A DNA stretch of 64,000 bases from a virus (taxonomy: Duplodnaviria > Caudoviricetes). The notes under the pieces are model-generated. The model saw nothing but the letters and a program-made list of their open reading frames with translations. It was not told the DNA's origin and did no database searches. The stretch is taken from positions 256,001 through 320,000 of the IMG/VR virus record IMGVR_UViG_3300028886_000028. One strand, written 5' to 3'. Position 1 is the first letter of the stretch. The number at the start of each line of letters is the position of its first letter. A program made the translations under genes and the position numbers. Below are positions 404 through 61,750 of the stretch, piece by piece.

Positions 404-465
404 AAGGAAACATACAGCAAGTTTAATTTATGGATTGCAACTCTTTAAAAACAAATGTTTCCTAA
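404..465 (+). ncRNA. ACAGCAA cassette 1 (cargo: Cys-GCA anticodon stem-loop mimic)
   Basis: Stem AGGAAACAT(405-413)/ATGTTTCCT(455-463), ACAGCAA, internal GGA-TTGCAAC-TCT. Confidence 0.75.
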
Positions 466-8675: not shown

Positions 8676-8850
8676 AAGGAACGTACAGCAAGTTTGTTTT
8701 AAATGTAATTTATTTATTTATTCAGACTGAAGCGAGAATAGAGAAGCACAAAATAATAATTGCGAGGCACTATTCTTATTTTTTACCGCAAATAATGAAG
8801 AATTTCATAATTTGCAAAGTCATTCCCGGACTTAAAAGGGCGTTCCTTAA
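8676..8850 (+). ncRNA. ACAGCAA cassette 6 (long, multi-hairpin cargo)
   Basis: Stem AAGGAACG/CGTTCCTT, TACAGCAA; includes AAGTC-ATTCCCG-GACTT hairpin. Confidence 0.75.
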
Positions 8851-9680: not shown

Positions 9681-10519
9681 GGTGAGGTGGCAGAGTGGTC
9701 GATTGCACCGGTCTTGCGCCTAATTCGAGTGCTATGGCGAAAAATCCCATAGTAGAATCTCCCTAAAACGGTGGAAGTCCTTTGAGACTCCTATGAGAAT
9801 CCTTGTTGATTCAATAATGAGGTGACAATAATAACAAACACTAACCAATAATGTGTAAGGATAATACCGTGCTAAATTGAGAATAATACTAAAATTTATC
9901 ATATATGAGATAACAAATAGAGGAAACTAAATATGGTACTTGCGCAAAATTTTAGTTAGTATTAAAAATGAGTTGTATTCTTATATGGTAGACAGCCATT
10001 AAGTTGAGACGCTTAGTATAAATATGAGCATCAGGCGAGAGTGGGTTCAAACACCACCAACTCATTTATAAATTGAAAAGCATACAGAATATCCAAAAGT
10101 ATGTAAAAAGACGATGGTGCAACATAGTCAATTTTTAATTTATTTCTCATAAATGTGTAGAGAGTATATAGGAGATACCTAAGTTGAAATTAATTTGAGG
10201 GAAAGTACTCAGCGTAGTAATACGTAATACATGAAAATTGTATTTTAAAGGAGGTTTGCCAATTGGGATAGCCCTATCAAATTACTTGCAAGAATTTCAA
10301 TATGGTAAATATGTATTCCAGACTACAACGAACATAGGAGAAATAGCGAGGAGATAGTTCAAGACTAGAGCAGCAGTTCTTGTAAACTGAAGACAGTGGG
10401 TGTAATTCCCACACTTTTCGCCACGACTTTCTTCTAAATTTGGTTATGGCAACATAAAGTAGCAAGGAAAACCGGCGGACGTGACGAGCGTTCCGGGGGT
10501 TCGAATCCCTCCCTCACCG
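9681..10519 (+). tRNA. tRNA-Ser(TGA), split by intron (exon1 9681-9715, exon2 10467-10519)
   Basis: Joining CCGGTCTT|GAAAACCGG restores CCGGT-CTTGAAA-ACCGG; GGTGAGG/CCTCACC acceptor, long variable arm, G73. Confidence 0.9.
9716..10466 (+). mobile_element. Group I intron (ORF-less, 751 nt) in tRNA-Ser anticodon loop
   Basis: 5' exon ends in U, intron ends in G; P/Q/R/S-like blocks AAAACGGTGGAA, AATACCGTGCTAA, GTAGAGAGTATATAGGAGA, AATATGTATTCCAG. Confidence 0.85.
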
Positions 10520-10945: not shown

Positions 10946-11019
10946 GCGCTCGTAGCTCAGCTGGTAGATGCACAACACTTTTAATGTTGGGGTCCTGGGT
11001 CCGAGTCCCAGCGGGCGCA
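10946..11019 (+). tRNA. tRNA-Lys(TTT)
   Basis: CAACA-CTTTTAA-TGTTG arm. Confidence 0.9.
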
Positions 11020-11218
11020 CTAAAATGTTACTATTATACGACATTTTATAGAAACTTTTAAGGATGTTTAATTTAAAGTATTTGAAAATTATGTTGACAT
11101 TTATTTTCGGTGCAGCAGTAGGCGCAGTCGCTTATAGCTGGTGGACTAAGCGATAAGTCCAAAAACATGGAGAGTAAGGTGGCGCACTCCGCCAATTAAA
11201 ACGTCACAATTATAAAAT

Positions 11219-11293
11219 TCCGTGATGGTGTAGGTGGTTGTTGCTCGTTGGACTGAAAATCCAAAGGCCCTTGTTCAACTCAAGGTCGCGGAA
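11219..11293 (+). tRNA. tRNA-Phe(GAA), atypical D arm
   Basis: TTGGA-CTGAAAA-TCCAA arm, CCTTG/CAAGG T stem. Confidence 0.82.
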
Positions 11294-11549
11294 CAAATAA
11301 AAAGTTGAAATTTATCTGTGGAATACAAACACGTTCAATCCAAGCAAGAAGGGGAACGATTTATAGGTATCAATCATAGACAGATAAAAATCTTGCAAGT
11401 ATTTCAGCTTTACTTTTAATGGTATGAGATAAACTAAGGGCTTATGTGAGGTTGTCACGAGCGTAGCATAGGAGGTGCAAGCCCACGTTTCACGAAGCTC
11501 AATGATTGACATCTATTTGTGACGTGGTTGTTTATCAATTGCCATATAT

Positions 11550-11632
11550 GGATGCGTGTAAGGACTCCTCTGGGGAGTGACCGTGTGATTGACATCAGGT
11601 AACAAACATAGGTTCGAATCCTATTGCATCCA
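11550..11632 (+). ncRNA. tRNA-like element (intact acceptor and T arm, non-canonical middle)
   Basis: GGATGCG/TGCATCC, ATAGG-TTCGAAT-CCTAT. Confidence 0.55.
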
Positions 11633-11813
11633 CAAATGCTTGATAATGAGTTTGGAGCAGTTAAAAAGGTGTGTGAAGCTCTAAATTAGTAGTTAGGCGG
11701 TATTATGTATGTGCTCTCGAAAGATTGAGCTGATTTAATATCGGTTAATGAACATGAAACAATTTCTCATTTCCGCAAGCATCAATAAAAATTGGGATGA
11801 AGATTAAGTAGTA

Positions 11814-11897
11814 GACATGCATGGGTATTCAAGCGGCTGAAGCGCCTAGTATTACAAACTAGTACACCATACGTATGTTCGAATCCTATTGCATCCA
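11814..11897 (+). pseudogene. Degenerate tRNA
   Basis: CTAGT-ATTACAA-ACTAG arm but poorly paired T and acceptor stems; 3' 25 nt duplicate 11612-11636. Confidence 0.5.
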
Positions 11898-12047
11898 CAA
11901 AAGGTGTTCGAAAAAACGTAGTTCGAAATGCGTTGAAGTAGATTAAATGTGGAAAGTCGTACCCTTCCGAGCAGACGTGTTTTCCACGCCTCGTTTGGGC
12001 TAAAGTGGGCAGAGATTCACGCCTCCAACACAGCATCTTTTTTATAT

Positions 12048-12127
12048 AGGGTATTAGCTCAGTTGGTTTAGAGCGTCTGACTTACATTCAGAAGGTTTCG
12101 TGGGTTCGATTCCCTCATACCCTACCA
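12048..12127 (+). tRNA. tRNA-Val(TAC), encoded CCA
   Basis: TCTGA-CTTACAT-TCAGA arm. Confidence 0.92.
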
Positions 12128-12251
12128 AGGAAACTAACAGCAAGGTTAAAAATGGCTTGTAACCCGTGGGTCACAGGTTCGAATCCTGTCTTAGGCTTTA
12201 AAAGTCTGGGTAGCTCAGTTGGCAGAGCAACGTTAATAAAATGTTTCCTAA
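12127..12251 (+). ncRNA. ACAGCAA cassette 7 carrying circularly permuted tRNA-Thr(TGT)
   Basis: Stem AGGAAAC/GTTTCCT; 3' part 12154-12197, linker TTAAAA, 5' part 12204-12232. Confidence 0.88.
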
Positions 12252-12255
12252 AAAT

Positions 12256-12329
12256 GTTGGTGTAGCTTAGTTGGTTAAAGCATTTGACTGATATTCAAAA
12301 GACCGGGGGTCCGAGTCCCTCCATCAACA
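12256..12329 (+). tRNA. tRNA-Ile(GAT)
   Basis: TTTGA-CTGATAT-TCAAA arm. Confidence 0.92.
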
Positions 12330-12344
12330 CACAATACAATTTTT

Positions 12345-12416
12345 GGGCTGTATAGTGTAAAGGCTAACACGAGACTTTTGCAAAGTCTAATTGCGGTTCG
12401 AGTCCGATACGGTCCA
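12345..12416 (+). tRNA. tRNA-Ala(TGC)
   Basis: AGACT-TTTGCAA-AGTCT arm, G3.U70. Confidence 0.85.
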
Positions 12417-12422
12417 CTAGAC

Positions 12423-12502
12423 AAGGGAACTAACAGCAAGTTATTATTTATGTTAAAACATCAGACTGCAAATTTGAAAACGTTGAACAAATAGTTCCCT
12501 AA
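12423..12502 (+). ncRNA. ACAGCAA cassette 8 (cargo: Cys-GCA anticodon stem-loop)
   Basis: Stem AGGGAACTA/TAGTTCCCT; CAGA-CTGCAAA-TTTG at 12462-12476. Confidence 0.8.
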
Positions 12503-12516
12503 TATTCATATTAAAC

Positions 12517-12924
12517 GGGCCTAAATTGGTATAGATTGGCAGTAGTTTGGTAGAAATCAAGCAGTGGGCATACACTAGAAATAGCAAAAAAAATATAAAC
12601 GGCGAGAATGTAGATTCTCCTGCTTATGCTTACGCAATGGCTGCGTAAGGCATGAGTCGAGAGACTAGGCTCTTAGGAACAGAACATCCTAGTAATTTTT
12701 CTTAGCGTTGTACGTTAAGATGGTGGAACTGATGACTTCTAGTCATCCCCTAGTTTTCCTCGTTTTCACAAAATGAGGTGGCGGTGAGTTAACTTTCCAA
12801 TGTTTTCCTCGTTTTCTCAAAATGAGGTGGTCTCAAAGGCGGTGTCTTCGGACACTTTGGGTAAGCTTGTATAAATTTCTATGGAACACTGAACAAGACG
12901 AGGGTTCAACTCCCTCTAGGTCCA
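12517..12924 (+). ncRNA. ssrA: tmRNA
   Basis: GGGCCTA/TAGGTCC acceptor with G3.U70, T arm GAGGG-TTCAACT-CCCTC, tag ORF 12601-12648 GENVDSPAYAYAMAA*. Confidence 0.93.
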
Positions 12925-13100
12925 CTAAATACTAAAAAAAAACTTATGAAACATTTTAGCGAAGGAAATCAAGAAGAAGAGTATGATTCTATGAAAGAAT
13001 ATGAAACTAACATACCTTCTCATTTTAAAGACGATTAAAAAAGTAACTTAAAATTTCTTTTTTACAATTTTTTTATGTATATTTGCAAAAAATATTGGTT

Positions 13101-13352
13101 ATGGGAAAAATTTTAGATGCAGAATTTAGAAAAGAACTTTATAAAAATCTTGTAGAGGCCGGGTATGAAAAGACAGAGGCTCAAAAGATTGTTGGTAAAA
13201 AGTATTATGGAGAGTTGCATGAAGAAGTAAAGAAGGAAGTTGATGTGTTTTTAAATGCATTAGTAAAAGAGGATTTTAGTGTTGTTTTTGATTGCGATTC
13301 AGTGACAAAGAAAGTAGAAGAACTTAAAAAGTTAAAAGAATTACTTAGTTAA
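13101..13352 (+). CDS. Hypothetical protein
   Basis: ORF after TATATTTG promoter; ATG start chosen. Confidence 0.7.
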   Translation: MGKILDAEFRKELYKNLVEAGYEKTEAQKIVGKKYYGELHEEVKKEVDVFLNALVKEDFSVVFDCDSVTKKVEELKKLKELLS

Positions 13353-13358
13353 TAATAT

Positions 13359-13431
13359 TGTGGGGTAGAGCAGTTGGTAGCTTGTCAGACTCATAATCTG
13401 GAGGTCGTGGGTTCGAGTCCCACCCCCGCTA
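13359..13431 (+). tRNA. tRNA-Met(CAT), initiator-like
   Basis: 1:72 mismatch, GAGC/GCTT D stem, CTCATAA loop; lacks the three G-C anticodon-stem pairs. Confidence 0.88.
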
Positions 13432-13443
13432 CTTTATAAATAC

Positions 13444-13575
13444 AAGGAAGTTGACAGCAAACGATAAGAAATTTTCCCAAGCCGGAGGTCGTTGGTTCGA
13501 ATCCAACTAGGAATTGTGTTTATCCTATAGCTCAGATGGTTTAGAGCGCCAGCTATTTCATTTAATGCTTCCTAA
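13444..13575 (+). ncRNA. ACAGCAA cassette 9 carrying circularly permuted tRNA-Gly(CCC)-like body
   Basis: Stem AGGAAGT/GCTTCCT; 3' part 13474-13512, 5' part 13523-13553. Confidence 0.85.
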
Positions 13576-13578
13576 AAT

Positions 13579-13655
13579 AGCCTCAGGGGATGCTAGGCGT
13601 GTCCGTCACTCTGTCACAGTGTTCAATCAGGTGGGTTCGAATCCCATTGGGGCTG
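13579..13655 (+). tRNA. tRNA-Asp(GTC)
   Basis: CACT-CTGTCAC-AGTG arm, G73. Confidence 0.85.
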
Positions 13656-13682
13656 CGTAGTATAAAACGTTTCCTAAAATAT

Positions 13683-13756
13683 GGTGTACGTGGTTGAGTG
13701 GTTTAGGCGCAAGATTGTGGTTCTTGTCTACGCAGGTTCGAATCCTGTCGTACACC
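13683..13756 (+). tRNA. tRNA-His(GTG)
   Basis: G-1:C73, CAAGA-TTGTGGT-TCTTG arm. Confidence 0.92.
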
Positions 13757-13944
13757 CTAGAATAATTTAATATTTTTAAATAAAATTAGTTATGAAAAGT
13801 TTTTGGTAGATTATCAATCAGTTTTGGTAGCTGAATCGTGTTCGTGGTACTCCTAGAGTTAATTTATTATCATCGAGTGAAAATAAGGGCGATAATAGTC
13901 CTTTTACAACATTAGAAAAATATAATAAATTAATATTAGGAATT

Positions 13945-14259
13945 ATGGAAAAATTACAATTTACAGACAAAGCAACCACAAAAGAACAGTATTTAAAGTT
14001 CAAGGAGTATATTAAGCAAAATTGTCACGGTCACGCTGCTTATGTAGCATACTACATTTTCAAGCATCGTATTGAAGGTGAAAAACGTGATGAATATCTT
14101 GAAGACGAGGTTAGACATCGTTGTTGGAAAGGCCTTTATCATGGTAGAATTCTACTCAGTGGTGGAGACATGACAGAAAACTATGCAATACCACTCTTTA
14201 AGAATAGGGTAATTAGAAAGTATAACGAATTTGCTGACCCAGATGGAAAAGAAAAATAA
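13945..14259 (+). CDS. Hypothetical protein
   Basis: 104-aa ORF. Confidence 0.7.
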   Translation: MEKLQFTDKATTKEQYLKFKEYIKQNCHGHAAYVAYYIFKHRIEGEKRDEYLEDEVRHRCWKGLYHGRILLSGGDMTENYAIPLFKNRVIRKYNEFADPDGKEK

Positions 14260-14568: not shown

Positions 14569-14645
14569 GGCCCTATGGCAGAGTGGTCGATTGCGGTCGC
14601 TTCTAAACCGATTTATCATCGTGGGTTCGAATCCTACTAGGGTCA
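14569..14645 (+). tRNA. Amber suppressor tRNA (CTA)
   Basis: GGCCCTA/TAGGGTC acceptor; GTCGC-TTCTAAA-CCGAT puts CTA (14603-14605) in the loop centre. Confidence 0.75.
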
Positions 14646-14829
14646 CTACGGCTTGGTGTATCCATTGAGATACTGAAATAGGTTAGACAAGCACAAGTCA
14701 CGTAAGAAATGACAGGCAGGCAGTAATGCTGTGCGAGGATTAGTCCCTTGCTCTAATCTCTTGATGGTAATAGAGACCTTTTTAAGTTAGAGGTTAAACT
14801 TATATTTTTTTAAAAAAGTATTAATAATT

Positions 14830-16430: not shown

Positions 16431-16503
16431 GCTCCGTTAGCTCAGTTGGAAGAGCACTAGATTTGTAATCCTGAGGTCGTGGGTTCAAGTCCCGCACGGA
16501 GCT
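16431..16503 (+). tRNA. tRNA-Thr(TGT), mismatched anticodon stem
   Basis: GCTCCGT/ACGGAGC; CTAGA-TTTGTAA-TCCTG has 2 mismatches. Confidence 0.8.
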
Positions 16504-16575
16504 CAGAATAAGGGGGAGAGCCTGTAGTTACGGCAGAACAGCATTCGGCTTCTACGCCAACCTCCCCAAATTTTT

Positions 16576-18466: not shown

Positions 18467-18580
18467 AGGGAACTTACAGCAAGTATTCATCGTGAAGGAA
18501 TGGTCTACTTGAAAGTCTTAAGAGCTTTTGTGCGTAAGCACTTGTGGGTTCGAATCCCACCGAAAATAAAAGTTCCCTAA
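18466..18580 (+). ncRNA. ACAGCAA cassette 10 carrying acceptor-less tRNA-Leu(TAA) body
   Basis: Stem AGGGAACTT/AAGTTCCCT; AAAGT-CTTAAGA-GCTTT arm, GTGC-GTAA-GCAC V arm, GTGGG/CCCAC T arm, only 3-bp acceptor. Confidence 0.85.
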
Positions 18581-60441: not shown

Positions 60442-61750
60442 AGGAAAACAATGTAAAGATATAAAAATCTTTACAGACAACATAGAAGAAAGTGCATTAG
60501 CATTGTTATATGAATTATCCAATTCTCCTATGTTTAAAGGGGCTAAAATTAGAATAATGCCTGACGTTCACCTTGGTGTGGGAATTGTTATAGGTTTCAC
60601 TTGTCCAATTCCAAAGGAGAACACATTCTTAAGCCCTAATTTTGTAGGAATAGATATAGGCTGCGGCGTAGAGTCTATCTTTTTTGATAAGCCTTTAGAG
60701 GAAAAGAAATATCCTTTATTTGAAAGAAGAATTAAAAAAGAAATACCAACCGGCTTTAATATACATAAGACACGTCAATTTGAAATGAAAGAGTTTATTA
60801 AATTTATAAACTCTGAAATTCAAAAAGCGTATCAATCATCAGGAGGAATCATTAATTTTGTTGAATTTAAAACAGAAGATGATTTTGAAAATTGGTGTAA
60901 AGGGTTCGGTATGAATTTTGGTACTTTTATCAAATCTATTGGTAGTCTTGGAGGTGGTAATCACTACCTTGAATATGACGTAAATGAAGATTTGAAAAAA
61001 TATGCTTTTACAATTCATACTGGTTCACGCAATCTTGGTAAAGCCGTTTGCCAAAAATGGCTACATGCATCAAAAGGTATTGAGGTCAATATAGAAGAAA
61101 GAGAAAAAGAAATTAAAGAGTTTACCGCTAATTTTAAAGGAGACCCTACTGAAATACCTGGAAATATAAAAAATATTCGTGAAAAATATAAGGTGTATGG
61201 AAGTGATGGATTTTTAAGCGGCAAAAATCTTGTTGGCTACCTTACTGATATGGTCATTGCTCAGGCATATGCTAAATTTAATAGAATGATTATTCTTAGA
61301 AAAGCGGCTGACGTAATGAATAAGATTAATGGGGCAAAAGTTATTGACCACATTGCATCAGTTCACAATTACCTTGATTTTGATGATATGACAATACGCA
61401 AAGGCTCTATACGTTCATATAAAGGCGAAAAGATAATTATACCATTCAATATGAAAGATGGTATTGCTATTTGCGAAGGTAAATCAAATGAGGATTGGAA
61501 CTGTTCAGCACCTCATGGTGCAGGGCGTTCTATGTCAAGGTCACAGGCTAAGAAGAAAATCAGTATTAACAATTTCCAAAAACAAATGAACGACGCCGGT
61601 GTATATTCTACATCAGTATGCGAAAGCACTCTTGATGAAGCACCAGACGCTTATAAGCCTATGGAAGAAATAGTTGAACTCATCAAAGACACATGCGATG
61701 TCTTATATTTTATGAAGCCAAAAATAAACATAAAAGCCACAGGTGGATAA
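60428..61750 (+). CDS. rtcB: RtcB-family RNA ligase
   Basis: MPDVH.G, VGIDIGCG, GSLGGGNH, HTGSR, HNY, SAPHGAGR, DEAP.AYK. Confidence 0.95.
   Translation: MIQIEGKQCKDIKIFTDNIEESALALLYELSNSPMFKGAKIRIMPDVHLGVGIVIGFTCPIPKENTFLSPNFVGIDIGCGVESIFFDKPLEEKKYPLFERRIKKEIPTGFNIHKTRQFEMKEFIKFINSEIQKAYQSSGGIINFVEFKTEDDFENWCKGFGMNFGTFIKSIGSLGGGNHYLEYDVNEDLKKYAFTIHTGSRNLGKAVCQKWLHASKGIEVNIEEREKEIKEFTANFKGDPTEIPGNIKNIREKYKVYGSDGFLSGKNLVGYLTDMVIAQAYAKFNRMIILRKAADVMNKINGAKVIDHIASVHNYLDFDDMTIRKGSIRSYKGEKIIIPFNMKDGIAICEGKSNEDWNCSAPHGAGRSMSRSQAKKKISINNFQKQMNDAGVYSTSVCESTLDEAPDAYKPMEEIVELIKDTCDVLYFMKPKINIKATGG

What the first reader, a model, noticed from the sequence alone, without database searches (positions are those of the whole stretch)
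12127..12251. Circularly permuted tRNA-Thr(UGU) with the same 29/30 breakpoint
The 3' part GG-CTTGTAA-CCCGT-GGGTC-ACAGG-TTCGAAT-CCTGT-CTTAGGC-T precedes a TTAAAA linker and the 5' part GTCTGGG-TA-GCTC-AGTTGGCA-GAGC-A-ACG. ACG+GG restores a perfect ACGGG/CCCGT stem with a canonical loop. Two different tRNAs opened at the same register suggests a rule, not decay. Unprocessed, the RNA would show an intact anticodon loop on an L-shaped body with no free CCA end. The normal tRNA-Thr(UGU) at 16431 has two anticodon-stem mismatches.
Basis: partly seen in the sequence, partly recalled or inferred. Interest (0 to 1): 0.87.

Follow-up and report, generated by a model that had tools for sequence, protein, structure and literature searches.

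The report
Phage Y-RNA with inside-out tRNA-Thr
A 401-kb phage, probably from the cattle gut, encodes a small RNA built like a threonine tRNA turned inside out and clamped by a conserved handle; it is best read as a Ro60-type "Y RNA" that imitates the tRNA which bacterial anti-phage nucleases are known to cut, not as a working tRNA gene.

Summary
At 12154-12232 the 3' part of a tRNA (positions 30-73) precedes the 5' part (1-29). Rejoined, ARAGORN calls it tRNA-Thr(UGU).

It is not decay. Nineteen distinct homologues in other phages keep the same 29/30 break, with 99% of stem positions paired and 13 pairs changed on both sides.

It is probably not a tRNA gene either. The body sits inside a covarying terminal handle (12128-12134 with 12243-12249) followed by ACAGCAA. 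Ten other RNAs of this phage share that handle. It matches Rfam YrlA end to end, but below threshold.

The phage encodes a protein with the Ro60 fold (Pfam DUF2828/DUF7788) and RtcB. A Ro60-type gene was found in 12 of 12 complete phage records carrying such RNAs and in 0 of 7 complete control records.

What is new relative to YrlA is an intact anticodon arm. That arm carries the features that P2-OLD requires of its substrates. The phage's real tRNA-Thr(UGU) lacks them.

My reading is a Y-RNA tRNA mimic, possibly a bait for such nucleases. Maturation into a tRNA is unsupported.

This scan has already seen the handle-RNA/Ro60-like pairing on other DNA (Felix O1-type phages).

The parts
12128..12134 (+). 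5' strand of the terminal handle (AGGAAAC). It starts directly after the encoded CCA of tRNA-Val (12125-12127).
   Evidence: It pairs with 12243-12249 and is in the MFE fold. The helix covaries among the 11 cassettes of this genome: GGAAAC/GTTTCC, GGAATC/GATTCC, GGAGTC/GACTCC, GGGAAC/GTTCCC, GGAAGT/GCTTCC. It also covaries among 44 cassettes in other phages.
12135..12143 (+). Unpaired conserved motif, TA + ACAGCAA. It is the candidate contact for the Ro60-like protein.
   Evidence: GGAANCTAACAGCAA with up to 2 mismatches occurs 7 times in the window, all on the + strand, against 0.55 expected. The motif stands at the position of YrlA's GNCGAA motif, and Rfam's YrlA alignment of the 13454 copy places ACAGCAA on acggCgaA.
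12144..12153 (+). Leader, a variable spacer between the handle motif and position 30.
   Evidence: It is not conserved even among the closest relatives (L003, L006, L011), whereas the adjacent loop is.
12154..12167 (+). Anticodon hairpin and 3' strand of the anticodon stem: G30 G31, loop CUUGUAA (U33, UGU, A37), C39-U43.
   Evidence: Pair 31:39 covaries (C-G 13, A-U 3, G-C 3), while 30:40 is G-C in 19 of 19. The loop is 7 nt, with U33 in 18 of 19 rows (the window's own Gln-like copy has A33) and a purine at 37 in all 19.
12168..12189 (+). Variable loop (GGGTC) and T arm (ACAGG TTCGAAT CCTGT).
   Evidence: Four of the five T-stem pairs change on both sides across homologues.
12190..12210 (+). 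Acceptor stem closed into a hairpin: 3' strand CTTAGGC, then U73 plus TTAAAA as the loop, then 5' strand GTCTGGG. It has 7 bp, 3 of them G.U.
   Evidence: All 7 pairs change on both sides across 19 homologues, with 98.5% paired.
12211..12232 (+). Positions 8-9, D arm (GCTC AGTTGGCA GAGC), A26, and A27 C28 G29, which is the 5' strand of the upper anticodon stem.
   Evidence: The D arm is that of the YrlA consensus (GUAGCUCA..GAGC).
12233..12242 (+). Trailer (TTAATAAAAT) between G29 and the handle.
   Evidence: It is 7-14 nt in the relatives with an ACAGC-type handle (ACAGCA; ACAGCT in L085).
12243..12249 (+). 3' strand of the handle (GTTTCCT), followed by AA. tRNA-Ile starts at 12256.
16431..16504 (+). 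The phage's ordinary tRNA-Thr(UGU). Its anticodon stem is CUAGA/UCCUG, with two mismatches and no C28-N-G30 / C40-N-G42 motif.
   Evidence: It is compared with Govande et al. 2025 (PMC12445682).
60545..61735 (+). RtcB RNA ligase gene.
   Evidence: Pfam PF01139, 197 bits, E 5e-59, at G000:316545-317735.

Best explanation
The locus 12128-12249 encodes one small structured RNA, not a tRNA gene. It is a Y RNA of the YrlA kind.

Anatomy. A 7-bp terminal handle followed by unpaired ACAGCAA carries a tRNA-shaped module written in permuted order: anticodon hairpin, variable loop, T arm, loop-closed acceptor stem, D arm.

Release (inferred). The RNA is probably cut out of the polycistronic tRNA transcript by the enzymes that trim its neighbours. 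Its 5' end abuts the CCA of tRNA-Val, and tRNA-Ile follows 6 nt after its 3' end.

Partner (inferred from fold and co-occurrence; binding is not shown). The handle and motif are bound by the phage's Ro60-fold protein (DUF2828/DUF7788 type, genome 246215-247879, about 20 kb upstream on the same strand).

Difference from described YrlA RNAs. The module keeps a complete anticodon arm. The strands enter and leave between positions 29 and 30, so that ACG+GG pairs with CCCGU under a canonical CUUGUAA loop.

Likely role (inference, about 0.4 on its own). The arm copies the nuclease-sensitive form of tRNA-Thr(UGU): A37 plus the paired C28-N-G30 / C40-N-G42 motif that P2-OLD requires. PARIS AriB also cuts after C40. 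The RNP could therefore act as a bait, trap or sensor for anticodon-stem nucleases of the host or of rival elements. Decoding of ACA would be left to the phage's own tRNA-Thr(UGU), whose stem has lost that motif.

At the level of class (Y-RNA-type tRNA mimic, not a tRNA precursor) I put about 0.8.
For: Structure is real and selected.
- The rejoined sequence is called tRNA-Thr(tgt).
- In 19 distinct homologues, 99.2% of stem cells pair, 13 pairs change on both sides, and the acceptor stem is entirely rewritten yet still paired.

Y RNA kinship.
- Rfam YrlA is the only non-tRNA family matching the locus end to end (34.3 bits).
- YrlA is by definition a Ro60-bound RNA with a permuted tRNA-like domain and a loop-closed acceptor (Chen 2014; Wang 2018).

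Family.
- Eleven handle/ACAGCA RNAs occur in this genome, with varied cargo.
- Forty-four more occur in 19 loci of other large phages.

Partner protein.
- The AlphaFold model of the 539-aa DUF7788 protein (pLDDT 81) has as its top PDB matches Xenopus Ro60, D. radiodurans Rsr and phage phiLo Ro60. They align over the full length at probability 1.0.
- Ten of 12 complete records with such RNAs encode this protein type. The other two encode canonical TROVE, and their RNAs have a different motif.
- Zero of 7 complete (0 of 19 in all) tRNA-Thr-bearing control records encode either.
- RtcB, the usual neighbour of rsr and yrlA, is in the window.

Closed acceptor. Relatives cap it with GAAA, UACG or cUUCGg.

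Bait idea.
- P2-OLD cuts tRNA-Thr(UGU) at 28/29 and 40/41 and needs A37 and two CNG motifs. Resistant phage tRNA-Thr have altered CNG motifs and a shortened stem.
- AriB's prime targets include Thr(UGU), and it cuts after C40.
- The mimic has C28 G29 G30 / C40 C41 G42 and A37.
- The real tRNA-Thr at 16431 has UAG/CCU with two mismatches.
- Seven of 8 real tRNA-Thr(UGU) genes in mimic-bearing loci also lack the paired motif.
- The loop is conserved among close relatives while the adjacent leader is not.
Against: - No experiment or read shows the RNA, its ends, or its binding to the Ro60-like protein.
- The match to YrlA is half the gathering score, and none of ten relatives' loci reaches it.
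- YrlA's GNCGAA motif is replaced by ACAGCAA.
- Pfam TROVE does not match anything in the genome.
- The Ro60-like gene lies about 20 kb away, not within the 4 kb typical of YrlA.

Against the bait idea specifically:
- Over-expressed sensitive tRNA-ThrU gave little protection against P2-OLD.
- Seven of the 19 aligned rows carry other anticodons: UGG x4 (three of them with G37, which does not fit OLD's A37 rule), UGA, AAG and the window's own Gln-like UUG. Besides the 10 UGU rows, one each carries UUU and GUU.
- C28 and G29 were fixed by my search pattern, and rows were kept only if the stem paired. Only G30:C40 is an unforced invariant.
- The host and its nucleases are unknown.
- The same CNG pair appears, by reading, in the Gly-like and Leu-like cargo classes. 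It may therefore serve the RNP itself rather than a nuclease.
Confidence: 0.6

Rival explanations
1. Same Ro60-type RNP, but the tRNA module is only a stable scaffold or a tether to a general partner such as PNPase, as proposed for YrlA and Yrn1. On this view the anticodon arm is an inherited remnant of a tRNA-Thr ancestor with no target of its own.
For: - Published views of YrlA give the tRNA-like domain a protective or tethering role.
- Sister RNAs with the same handle carry non-tRNA cargo.
- Many anticodon loops in the subfamily differ by only a base or two (UGU, UGG, UUU, UGA, GUU), as expected under drift.
- The Gln-like paralogue has A33.
Against: - The loop always keeps 7 nt, has U33 in 18 of 19 rows and a purine at 37 in all. 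It is conserved where the adjacent leader is not.
- UGU persists across at least 7 lineages that have unrelated handles and acceptor stems.
- Pair 31:39 covaries, which keeps the two-pair hairpin.
- The contrast with the real tRNA-Thr in the same genomes is unexplained.
Confidence: 0.25
2. It is a genuine permuted tRNA gene. The handle-closed precursor is cut on both sides of the 29/30 junction and sealed, for example by the phage RtcB, into a circle. The closing loop is then opened by RNase P and 3' trimming with CCA addition, giving a working tRNA-Thr(UGU).
For: - The cloverleaf is perfect on rejoining.
- The anticodon loop is canonical and the acceptor has 7 bp with G1.
- The break register is constant.
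- RtcB is present.
- One relative (L042) encodes ACCA after the 3' acceptor strand.
- Wang et al. raised this possibility for YrlA.
- M. smegmatis YrlA is cut by RNase P and receives CCA.
Against: - The genome has no splicing-endonuclease domain at E<=1, while the control genomes do match.
- I saw no conserved bulge-helix-bulge next to the junction. Leaders are 15-37 nt, trailers 7-30 nt, and both are unconserved.
- Relatives close the acceptor with stable tetraloops and have no discriminator.
- Pairs 1:72 and 2:71 are not conserved among the UGU members (G-C, U-A, C-G, G.U).
- A normal tRNA-Thr(UGU) already exists in the array.
- The same handle encloses cargo that cannot become a tRNA.
- Co-occurrence with Ro60-type proteins points to an RNP.
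Confidence: 0.08
3. It is a two-piece mimic. As in M. smegmatis YrlA, RNase P cuts 5' of G1 (12204) in the closing loop and CCA is added after U73. This leaves two fragments held together by the stems and the handle, perhaps chargeable. This is compatible with the main explanation rather than opposed to it.
For: - The acceptor stem has 7 bp with G1 and a 7-nt A/U loop.
- RNase P cutting and CCA addition are published for a 7-bp YrlA.
Against: - Three of the seven acceptor pairs are G.U.
- Relatives with tetraloop caps cannot follow this route.
- No read data bear on it.
Confidence: 0.12
4. It is decay: remnants of two tandem tRNA-Thr genes, or a recombination scar.
For: None beyond the unusual order.
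Against: The two parts are exactly complementary. Conservation with compensatory changes is seen in 19 homologues from different phages.
Confidence: 0.01

Closest known systems
YrlA (Y RNA-like A; Rfam RF02553), the Ro60/Rsr-bound tRNA-mimicking Y RNA of bacteria and mycobacteriophages (Chen et al. 2014, PMC4201824; Wang et al. 2018, 10.1101/312249)
   Same: - The 5' and 3' ends pair into a stem with a short conserved unpaired motif on the 5' side.
- The tRNA-like domain is in the order V/T/closed acceptor/D.
- The D arm (GUAGCUCA..GAGC) and T loop are the same.
- It is encoded among tRNAs and processed with them, in genomes that hold a Ro60-fold protein and RtcB.
   Different: - Its score is half Rfam's threshold.
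- The motif is ACAGCAA, not GNCGAA(N)G.
- The partner is a DUF2828/DUF7788 protein that Pfam TROVE does not detect, and its gene is about 20 kb away.
- Eleven paralogues occur per genome.
- Above all it has a complete anticodon stem-loop, whereas 'YrlA lacks the anticodon loop'.
Mycobacterium smegmatis YrlA
   Same: It has a 7-bp acceptor-like stem closed by a loop.
   Different: That RNA is shown to be cut by RNase P and to receive CCA. Nothing is known about this here.
Circularly permuted tRNA genes of Cyanidioschyzon merolae, some green algae and Thermofilum pendens (as cited in Wang et al. 2018; otherwise my own knowledge)
   Same: - The 3' half lies upstream of the 5' half, joined through the acceptor end.
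- Leader and trailer pair with each other.
- Rejoining gives a perfect tRNA.
   Different: Those precursors carry a bulge-helix-bulge site and are cut by the archaeal/eukaryal splicing endonuclease. Here there is no such enzyme and I saw no such motif. The system is bacterial: it has tmRNA and a sigma-70-type factor.
Thermus phage phiLo Ro60 with Yrl1/Yrl2 (PMC12135203)
   Same: It is a phage-encoded Ro60-fold protein with phage-encoded stem-bulge-stem RNAs. The structure 9l5y is among the fold matches.
   Different: The phiLo RNAs carry the CGAA motif, and no tRNA-like anticodon arm is described for them.
Nuclease-resistant phage tRNA-Thr(UGU) that rescue from P2-OLD (PMC12445682) and T5 tRNAs that neutralise PARIS AriB (PMC12409363)
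   Same: - The same tRNA species is at stake.
- The window's real tRNA-Thr(UGU) shows the published resistance features: lost CNG motifs and a shortened stem.
   Different: The element studied here is the opposite. It has a sensitive-type arm on a body that cannot be charged as it stands. I know of no report of a tRNA-mimic bait.
Dictyostelium Class I RNAs (PMC7919456)
   Same: They have a short terminal stem joining the 5' and 3' ends, a conserved 11-nt unpaired motif next to the 5' strand, and a variable remainder. Earlier notes of this scan say the motifs resemble each other.
   Different: The motif's letters are not in the text I could read. No Rfam match appeared at E<=10. This resemblance is a lead, not a test.

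Membership tests
YrlA / bacterial Y RNA (Rfam RF02553) | tRNA-like domain in permuted order, with T arm, loop-closed acceptor stem and D arm | tested here: met
YrlA / bacterial Y RNA (Rfam RF02553) | Score at or above Rfam's gathering threshold (69 bits) | tested here: not met
   The locus scores 34.3 bits. Ten relatives' loci give no YrlA hit at gathering.
YrlA / bacterial Y RNA (Rfam RF02553) | Terminal stem with the GNCGAA(N)G Ro60-contact motif near the 5' end | tested here: not met
   The terminal stem is present and covaries. The motif is ACAGCAA, and Rfam aligns it to acggCgaA with two purine changes. TROVE-type relatives have GGCGACAG.
YrlA / bacterial Y RNA (Rfam RF02553) | Encoded near a Ro60/TROVE gene (within about 4 kb, same strand) | tested here: inconclusive
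   Pfam TROVE gives no hit. A Ro60-fold protein lies on the same strand about 20 kb upstream. Co-occurrence is 12/12 against 0/7.
YrlA / bacterial Y RNA (Rfam RF02553) | Bound by Ro60/Rsr in vivo | not testable with these tools
   This needs immunoprecipitation or EMSA.
YrlA / bacterial Y RNA (Rfam RF02553) | No anticodon loop; the stem equivalent to the anticodon stem runs straight into the Ro60-binding stem | tested here: not met
   A 7-nt loop closed by pairs 30:40 and 31:39 is present and conserved. Wang 2018 states that YrlA lacks it.
Circularly permuted tRNA gene (algal/archaeal type) | 3' half upstream of 5' half; rejoining restores a canonical tRNA | tested here: met
Circularly permuted tRNA gene (algal/archaeal type) | Bulge-helix-bulge site at the junction and a splicing endonuclease to cut it | tested here: not met
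   PF01974 gives no hit at E<=1 in the 401-kb genome, while the control genomes do match. Leader and trailer next to the junction are unconserved in length and sequence. The search for the motif was by eye only.
Circularly permuted tRNA gene (algal/archaeal type) | A mature, rejoined tRNA exists | tested here: inconclusive
   Contigs of four RNA libraries show no 12232->12154 joint. Contigs of standard libraries could hardly show one.
Canonical tRNA gene | Contiguous cloverleaf detected by ARAGORN or Rfam tRNA | tested here: not met
   The locus is not called at 12128-12249.
Substrate type of P2-OLD (PMC12445682) | A37 and paired CNG motifs at 28-30 and 40-42 of the anticodon stem | tested here: met
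   C28 G29 G30 / C40 C41 G42 and A37 are present (rule). Actual cleavage or binding was not tested. The strand break at 29/30 lies inside the motif.

The most novel reading that the evidence does not exclude
The handle-closed permuted RNAs are stored 'pro-tRNAs'. They are held by the Ro60-like ring and converted, by a still unknown cut at the 29/30 junction plus RtcB sealing and RNase P/CCA opening of the acceptor loop, into working tRNAs when host nucleases have destroyed the normal ones. That would be a permuted-tRNA maturation pathway in the bacterial/phage world.
Probability: 0.07. Interest if true: 0.92.

Novelty: new variant of a known kind. Interest (0 to 1): 0.64.

Why it matters
Y RNAs with tRNA-like domains are known, but what the tRNA part is for is an open question.

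Here the mimic is complete down to a canonical anticodon arm of one particular tRNA. The same genomes carry a real copy of that tRNA whose stem has lost the nuclease-recognition features.

This turns a vague role ('effector-binding domain') into a testable one: does a Ro60-type RNP bait, trap or sense anticodon-stem nucleases such as OLD and PARIS?

It also shows three further things.
- A large, unannotated family of handle RNAs (11 in this phage) pairs with a Ro60-fold protein that Pfam's TROVE model misses.
- tRNA finders silently skip these genes.
- The 29/30 junction makes these RNAs the closest bacterial-world look-alikes of permuted pre-tRNAs.

Tried and rejected
- Similarity to deposited phages: megablast of 11000-14000 found no match.
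- Pfam TROVE on the whole genome: no hit. The Ro60 relationship came only from a fold search.
- phmmer of the protein against PDB sequences: nothing meaningful.
- Literature on DUF2828: only incidental mentions.
- RNA evidence: 24 runs share words with 11900-12700, mostly bovine-gut metatranscriptomes. I laid four of them.
  - They are Logan contigs, not reads.
  - They cover the tmRNA well. One 229-nt contig is identical over 12447-12675.
  - They touch the element only through short conserved pieces, mostly from relatives or other organisms.
  - No 12232->12154 joint was seen, and the listed joints are chimeric matches between conserved tRNA segments.
  - This neither shows nor excludes expression or ligation.
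- Bulge-helix-bulge: I tried by eye to pair the leader and trailer next to the junction, for Thr and Gln. The pairings were A/U-rich, inconsistent between copies, and not of the 3-4-3 form.
- TAG recoding, suggested by the tRNA with a CUA anticodon: reading TAG as Gln did not lengthen ORFs in 19-27 kb.
- Dictyostelium Class I motif: the paper's text does not give the letters, so the resemblance stays untested.
- Anticodon-to-handle pairing (UGU with the ACA of ACAGCAA): only 3 bp, and absent in the members with other anticodons. Dropped.
- Caveat on selection: I kept only rows whose anticodon stem paired perfectly. The dropped hits were ordinary tRNA neighbours (7 loci) and four unclear cases (L081/L108, L091, L102, L103/L107).
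Full report
**1. Where we are.** The window is bases 256001-320000 of a 401-kb IMG/VR virus record rated complete. Its first 19 kb are a + strand array of about 26 tRNA genes plus a tmRNA. Contigs of bovine-gut RNA libraries hold near-identical pieces, one of 229 nt with no mismatch, so the phage probably lives in the cattle gut.

**2. The observation.** All letters and coordinates of the finding are right.
- Positions 30-73 of a tRNA lie at 12154-12197.
- A TTAAAA linker lies at 12198-12203.
- Positions 1-29 lie at 12204-12232.

Joined 12232->12154, the sequence is called tRNA-Thr(tgt) by ARAGORN. As it stands, no tRNA finder calls it. A scan for the order 'T arm, 3' acceptor strand, short linker, 5' acceptor strand, D arm' found one more good case in the window. 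This is a Gln(UUG)-like element at 1866-1957 with the same ACG|G break. The ordinary tRNA-Thr(UGU) at 16431 has two anticodon-stem mismatches, as stated.

**3. The surroundings change the picture.** The permuted body is enclosed by a 7-bp helix, 12128-12134 with 12243-12249, followed on the 5' side by TA-ACAGCAA.
- The motif GGAANCTAACAGCAA (up to 2 mismatches) occurs 7 times on the + strand, against 0.55 expected.
- A pairing-aware search finds 10 such cassettes in the window and one more 67 kb upstream.
- Their helices covary: GGAAAC/GTTTCC, GGAATC/GATTCC, GGAGTC/GACTCC, GGGAAC/GTTCCC, and GGAAGT/GCTTCC with a U.G pair. This is therefore an RNA helix.
- The cargo differs between cassettes: three permuted tRNA bodies (Gln-like 1838, Thr-like 12128, Gly-like 13445), two non-permuted tRNA-like bodies (2346, 18468), and short or long non-tRNA inserts (406, 1284, 2844, 8678, 12425).
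- The element begins right after the encoded CCA of tRNA-Val and ends 6 nt before tRNA-Ile. tRNA processing of the neighbours would release it (inference).

**4. What Rfam says.** With the E-value threshold, the only non-tRNA family matching the locus over its whole model is YrlA. It scores 34.3 bits against a gathering score of 69, with E 2.6e-5. The Gly-like cassette scores 27.6 bits.

YrlA is the bacterial and phage Y RNA bound by the Ro60 orthologue Rsr. Its ends pair into a stem carrying GNCGAA(N)G, and its middle is a tRNA mimic in exactly this permuted order with a loop-closed acceptor (Chen 2014). [quoted passage not shown] They state that YrlA 'lacks the anticodon loop', and they raise the possibility of processing like algal permuted tRNAs.

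**5. A Ro60-type partner exists.**
- Pfam TROVE finds nothing in the genome.
- A 539-aa protein at genome 246215-247879 (+ strand, about 20 kb upstream, next to IF3, a sigma factor and TyrRS genes) matches DUF7788, and weakly DUF2828 and VWA.
- It has more than 1,700 homologues.
- Its AlphaFold model (pLDDT 81) has as best PDB matches Xenopus Ro60 (1yvp, 2i91, 1yvr), D. radiodurans Rsr (2nvo) and Thermus phage phiLo Ro60 (9l5y). All align over the full length at probability 1.0, with TM about 0.5 for the best matches (0.34-0.43 for 2nvo and 9l5y).
- RtcB, which accompanies rsr and yrlA in many bacteria, is at 60545-61735.

**6. Relatives.** Three pattern scans of IMG/VR gave the comparative set.
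- The handle/ACAGCA family is widespread in phages of 100-380 kb: 44 cassettes in 19 loci.
- A scan that did not constrain the anticodon region (T loop ... AGAGCAACGT) returned permuted elements from many lineages. Eighteen distinct ones, plus this one, have a perfect 5-bp anticodon stem rebuilt across a break that always lies between 29 and 30.
- On the alignment the named structure pairs in 99.2% of cells, against 36-54% when partners are slid.
- Thirteen pairs change on both sides, including all seven acceptor pairs and 31:39 (C-G 13, A-U 3, G-C 3). No shuffle of 500 reaches the observed values on four of the five measures, and one does on the fifth.
- The loop is always 7 nt, with U33 in 18 of 19 rows (the Gln-like copy has A33) and a purine at 37 in all. 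Across the 19 aligned rows, anticodons are UGU x10, UGG x4, and GUU, UUU, UGA, AAG and UUG (the window's Gln-like copy) once each.
- Closing loops include GAAA, UACG and cUUCGg, which are stable caps and not processing linkers. One (L042) encodes ACCA.
- None of ten such loci reaches Rfam's YrlA threshold.

**7. Co-occurrence.** Of the records that carry such RNAs and are at least 90% complete, 10 of 12 encode the DUF2828-type protein. The other two encode canonical TROVE. The RNAs of those two lack ACAGCA, and the L088 one reads GGCGACAG, closer to the published GNCGAA.

In 19 control records that carry an ordinary tRNA-Thr(UGU) but no permuted element, neither protein was found: 0 of 7 complete ones. 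Taken at face value, 12/12 against 0/7 has a Fisher probability of about 2e-5 (my arithmetic). The records are not phylogenetically independent.

**8. Is it a tRNA precursor?**

Points for:
- a perfect cloverleaf;
- a constant break;
- RtcB in the window;
- the M. smegmatis precedent for RNase P cutting and CCA addition.

Points against:
- no splicing-endonuclease domain in 401 kb;
- no conserved structure next to the junction;
- tetraloop-capped acceptors in relatives;
- pairs 1:72 and 2:71 not conserved among UGU members;
- a normal tRNA-Thr(UGU) in the same array;
- the same handle around cargo that can never be a tRNA.

I put this reading at about 0.08.

**9. Why a threonine anticodon arm?** Two recent papers show that tRNA-Thr(UGU) is a prime target of anti-phage Toprim nucleases that cut the anticodon stem.
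- P2-OLD cuts between 28/29 and after 40. It requires A37 and paired CNG motifs (C28-N-G30 and C40-N-G42). Phage tRNA-Thr escape through altered CNG motifs and a shortened stem, and phage ligases cannot repair the damage (PMC12445682).
- PARIS AriB cuts after C40. Its targets are Lys(UUU), Thr(UGU) and Asn(GUU) (PMC12409363).

The mimic has C28 G29 G30 / C40 C41 G42 with A37 and UGU. That is the sensitive type, with the strand break inside the motif. G30:C40 is G-C in 19 of 19 although my search did not force it.

The window's real tRNA-Thr(UGU) reads CUAGA/UCCUG: both CNG motifs are gone and there are two mismatches. Seven of 8 real tRNA-Thr(UGU) genes found in loci that also carry a mimic lack the paired motif, and five of them have a mismatch at 28:42 or 29:41.

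So these phages appear to be under selection from such nucleases, yet they keep a sensitive-looking arm on an RNA that is not needed for decoding. A bait, trap or sensor role for the RNP is my preferred inference, at about 0.4.

Cautions:
- Over-expressed sensitive tRNA-ThrU hardly protected against P2-OLD.
- The members with other anticodons, especially those with G37, do not fit the OLD rule.
- By reading, the CNG pair also occurs in the Gly-like, Leu-like and L008-type cargo. It could be a contact of the RNP itself.
- The host is unknown.

**10. Verdict.** The object, however, is a Y-RNA-type tRNA mimic with a Ro60-fold partner, not a tRNA gene awaiting ligation.

Relative to published YrlA, three things are new: the intact anticodon arm, the ACAGCAA handle with a DUF2828-type partner, and the possible link to anticodon-stem nucleases.

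Earlier notes of this scan had already seen handle RNAs beside Ro60-like genes in this genome and in Felix O1-type phages. The Y RNA lead came from them, and I tested it here.

Noticed in passing
window 406-462, 1284-1351, 1838-1973, 2346-2458, 2844-2907, 8678-8846, 12425-12499, 13445-13573, 18468-18577; genome 189040-189180: These are ten further RNAs with the same covarying handle plus ACAGCA(A). Their cargo is: a Gln(UUG)-like permuted tRNA with A33; a Gly(CCC)-like permuted body with a 5-bp acceptor and a break at 31/32 (orthologues have UCC); two non-permuted tRNA-like bodies that ARAGORN miscalls (2373-2442 '???', 18486-18568 'Leu'); a 169-nt insert; and short hairpins, one of which (12425) shows a CUGCAAA loop.
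   Followed up: partly
window 16431-16504: The ordinary tRNA-Thr(UGU) has anticodon stem CUAGA/UCCUG, with two mismatches and no CNG motifs. This is the pattern published for phage tRNA-Thr that resist P2-OLD. The same trend holds in 7 of 8 relatives' loci.
   Followed up: partly
genome 246215-247879 (about 8-10 kb before the window start; L021:2263-3879): A Ro60-fold protein that Pfam TROVE misses (DUF7788 plus weak DUF2828/VWA). It is flanked by IF3, a sigma-70-type factor and TyrRS genes.
   Followed up: yes
window 14569-14646: A tRNA with anticodon CUA, which ARAGORN labels 'Pyl' and which reads as an amber suppressor. Reading TAG as Gln did not lengthen ORFs in 19-27 kb, so its use is unclear.
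   Followed up: partly
window 12517-12927: A phage tmRNA (tag GENVDSPAYAYAMAA) directly downstream of a handle RNA. It is the best-covered part in bovine-gut RNA-library contigs.
   Followed up: no
window 10348-10420 and 11550-11632: Two weak Rfam tRNA matches (30 and 25.5 bits) that ARAGORN does not call. They may be degenerate tRNAs or further mimics.
   Followed up: no
L042:5042-5121 (-) and L042:6232-6558: A relative's Thr(UGU) mimic encodes ACCA right after the 3' acceptor strand and has G1-C72. It is the most tRNA-like member. The same locus holds a permuted (alpha-type) tmRNA gene.
   Followed up: no
L086:39-667 (-): A ROOL RNA (351 bits) lies in the same tRNA region as a UGG-loop permuted mimic.
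   Followed up: no
L088:3950-4033 and flanks: In a phage with canonical TROVE, the mimic's handle reads AUCGAGG-CGACAG. A second module with GAGGCGACAG follows within 50 nt, so this is a tandem Y RNA array whose motif is intermediate between GNCGAA and ACAGCA.
   Followed up: partly
genome 189040-189180 (L022): The Leu-type permuted mimic has UUUGUAA, a Thr anticodon-loop sequence, lying unpaired in its leader 10 nt before the stem strand.
   Followed up: no
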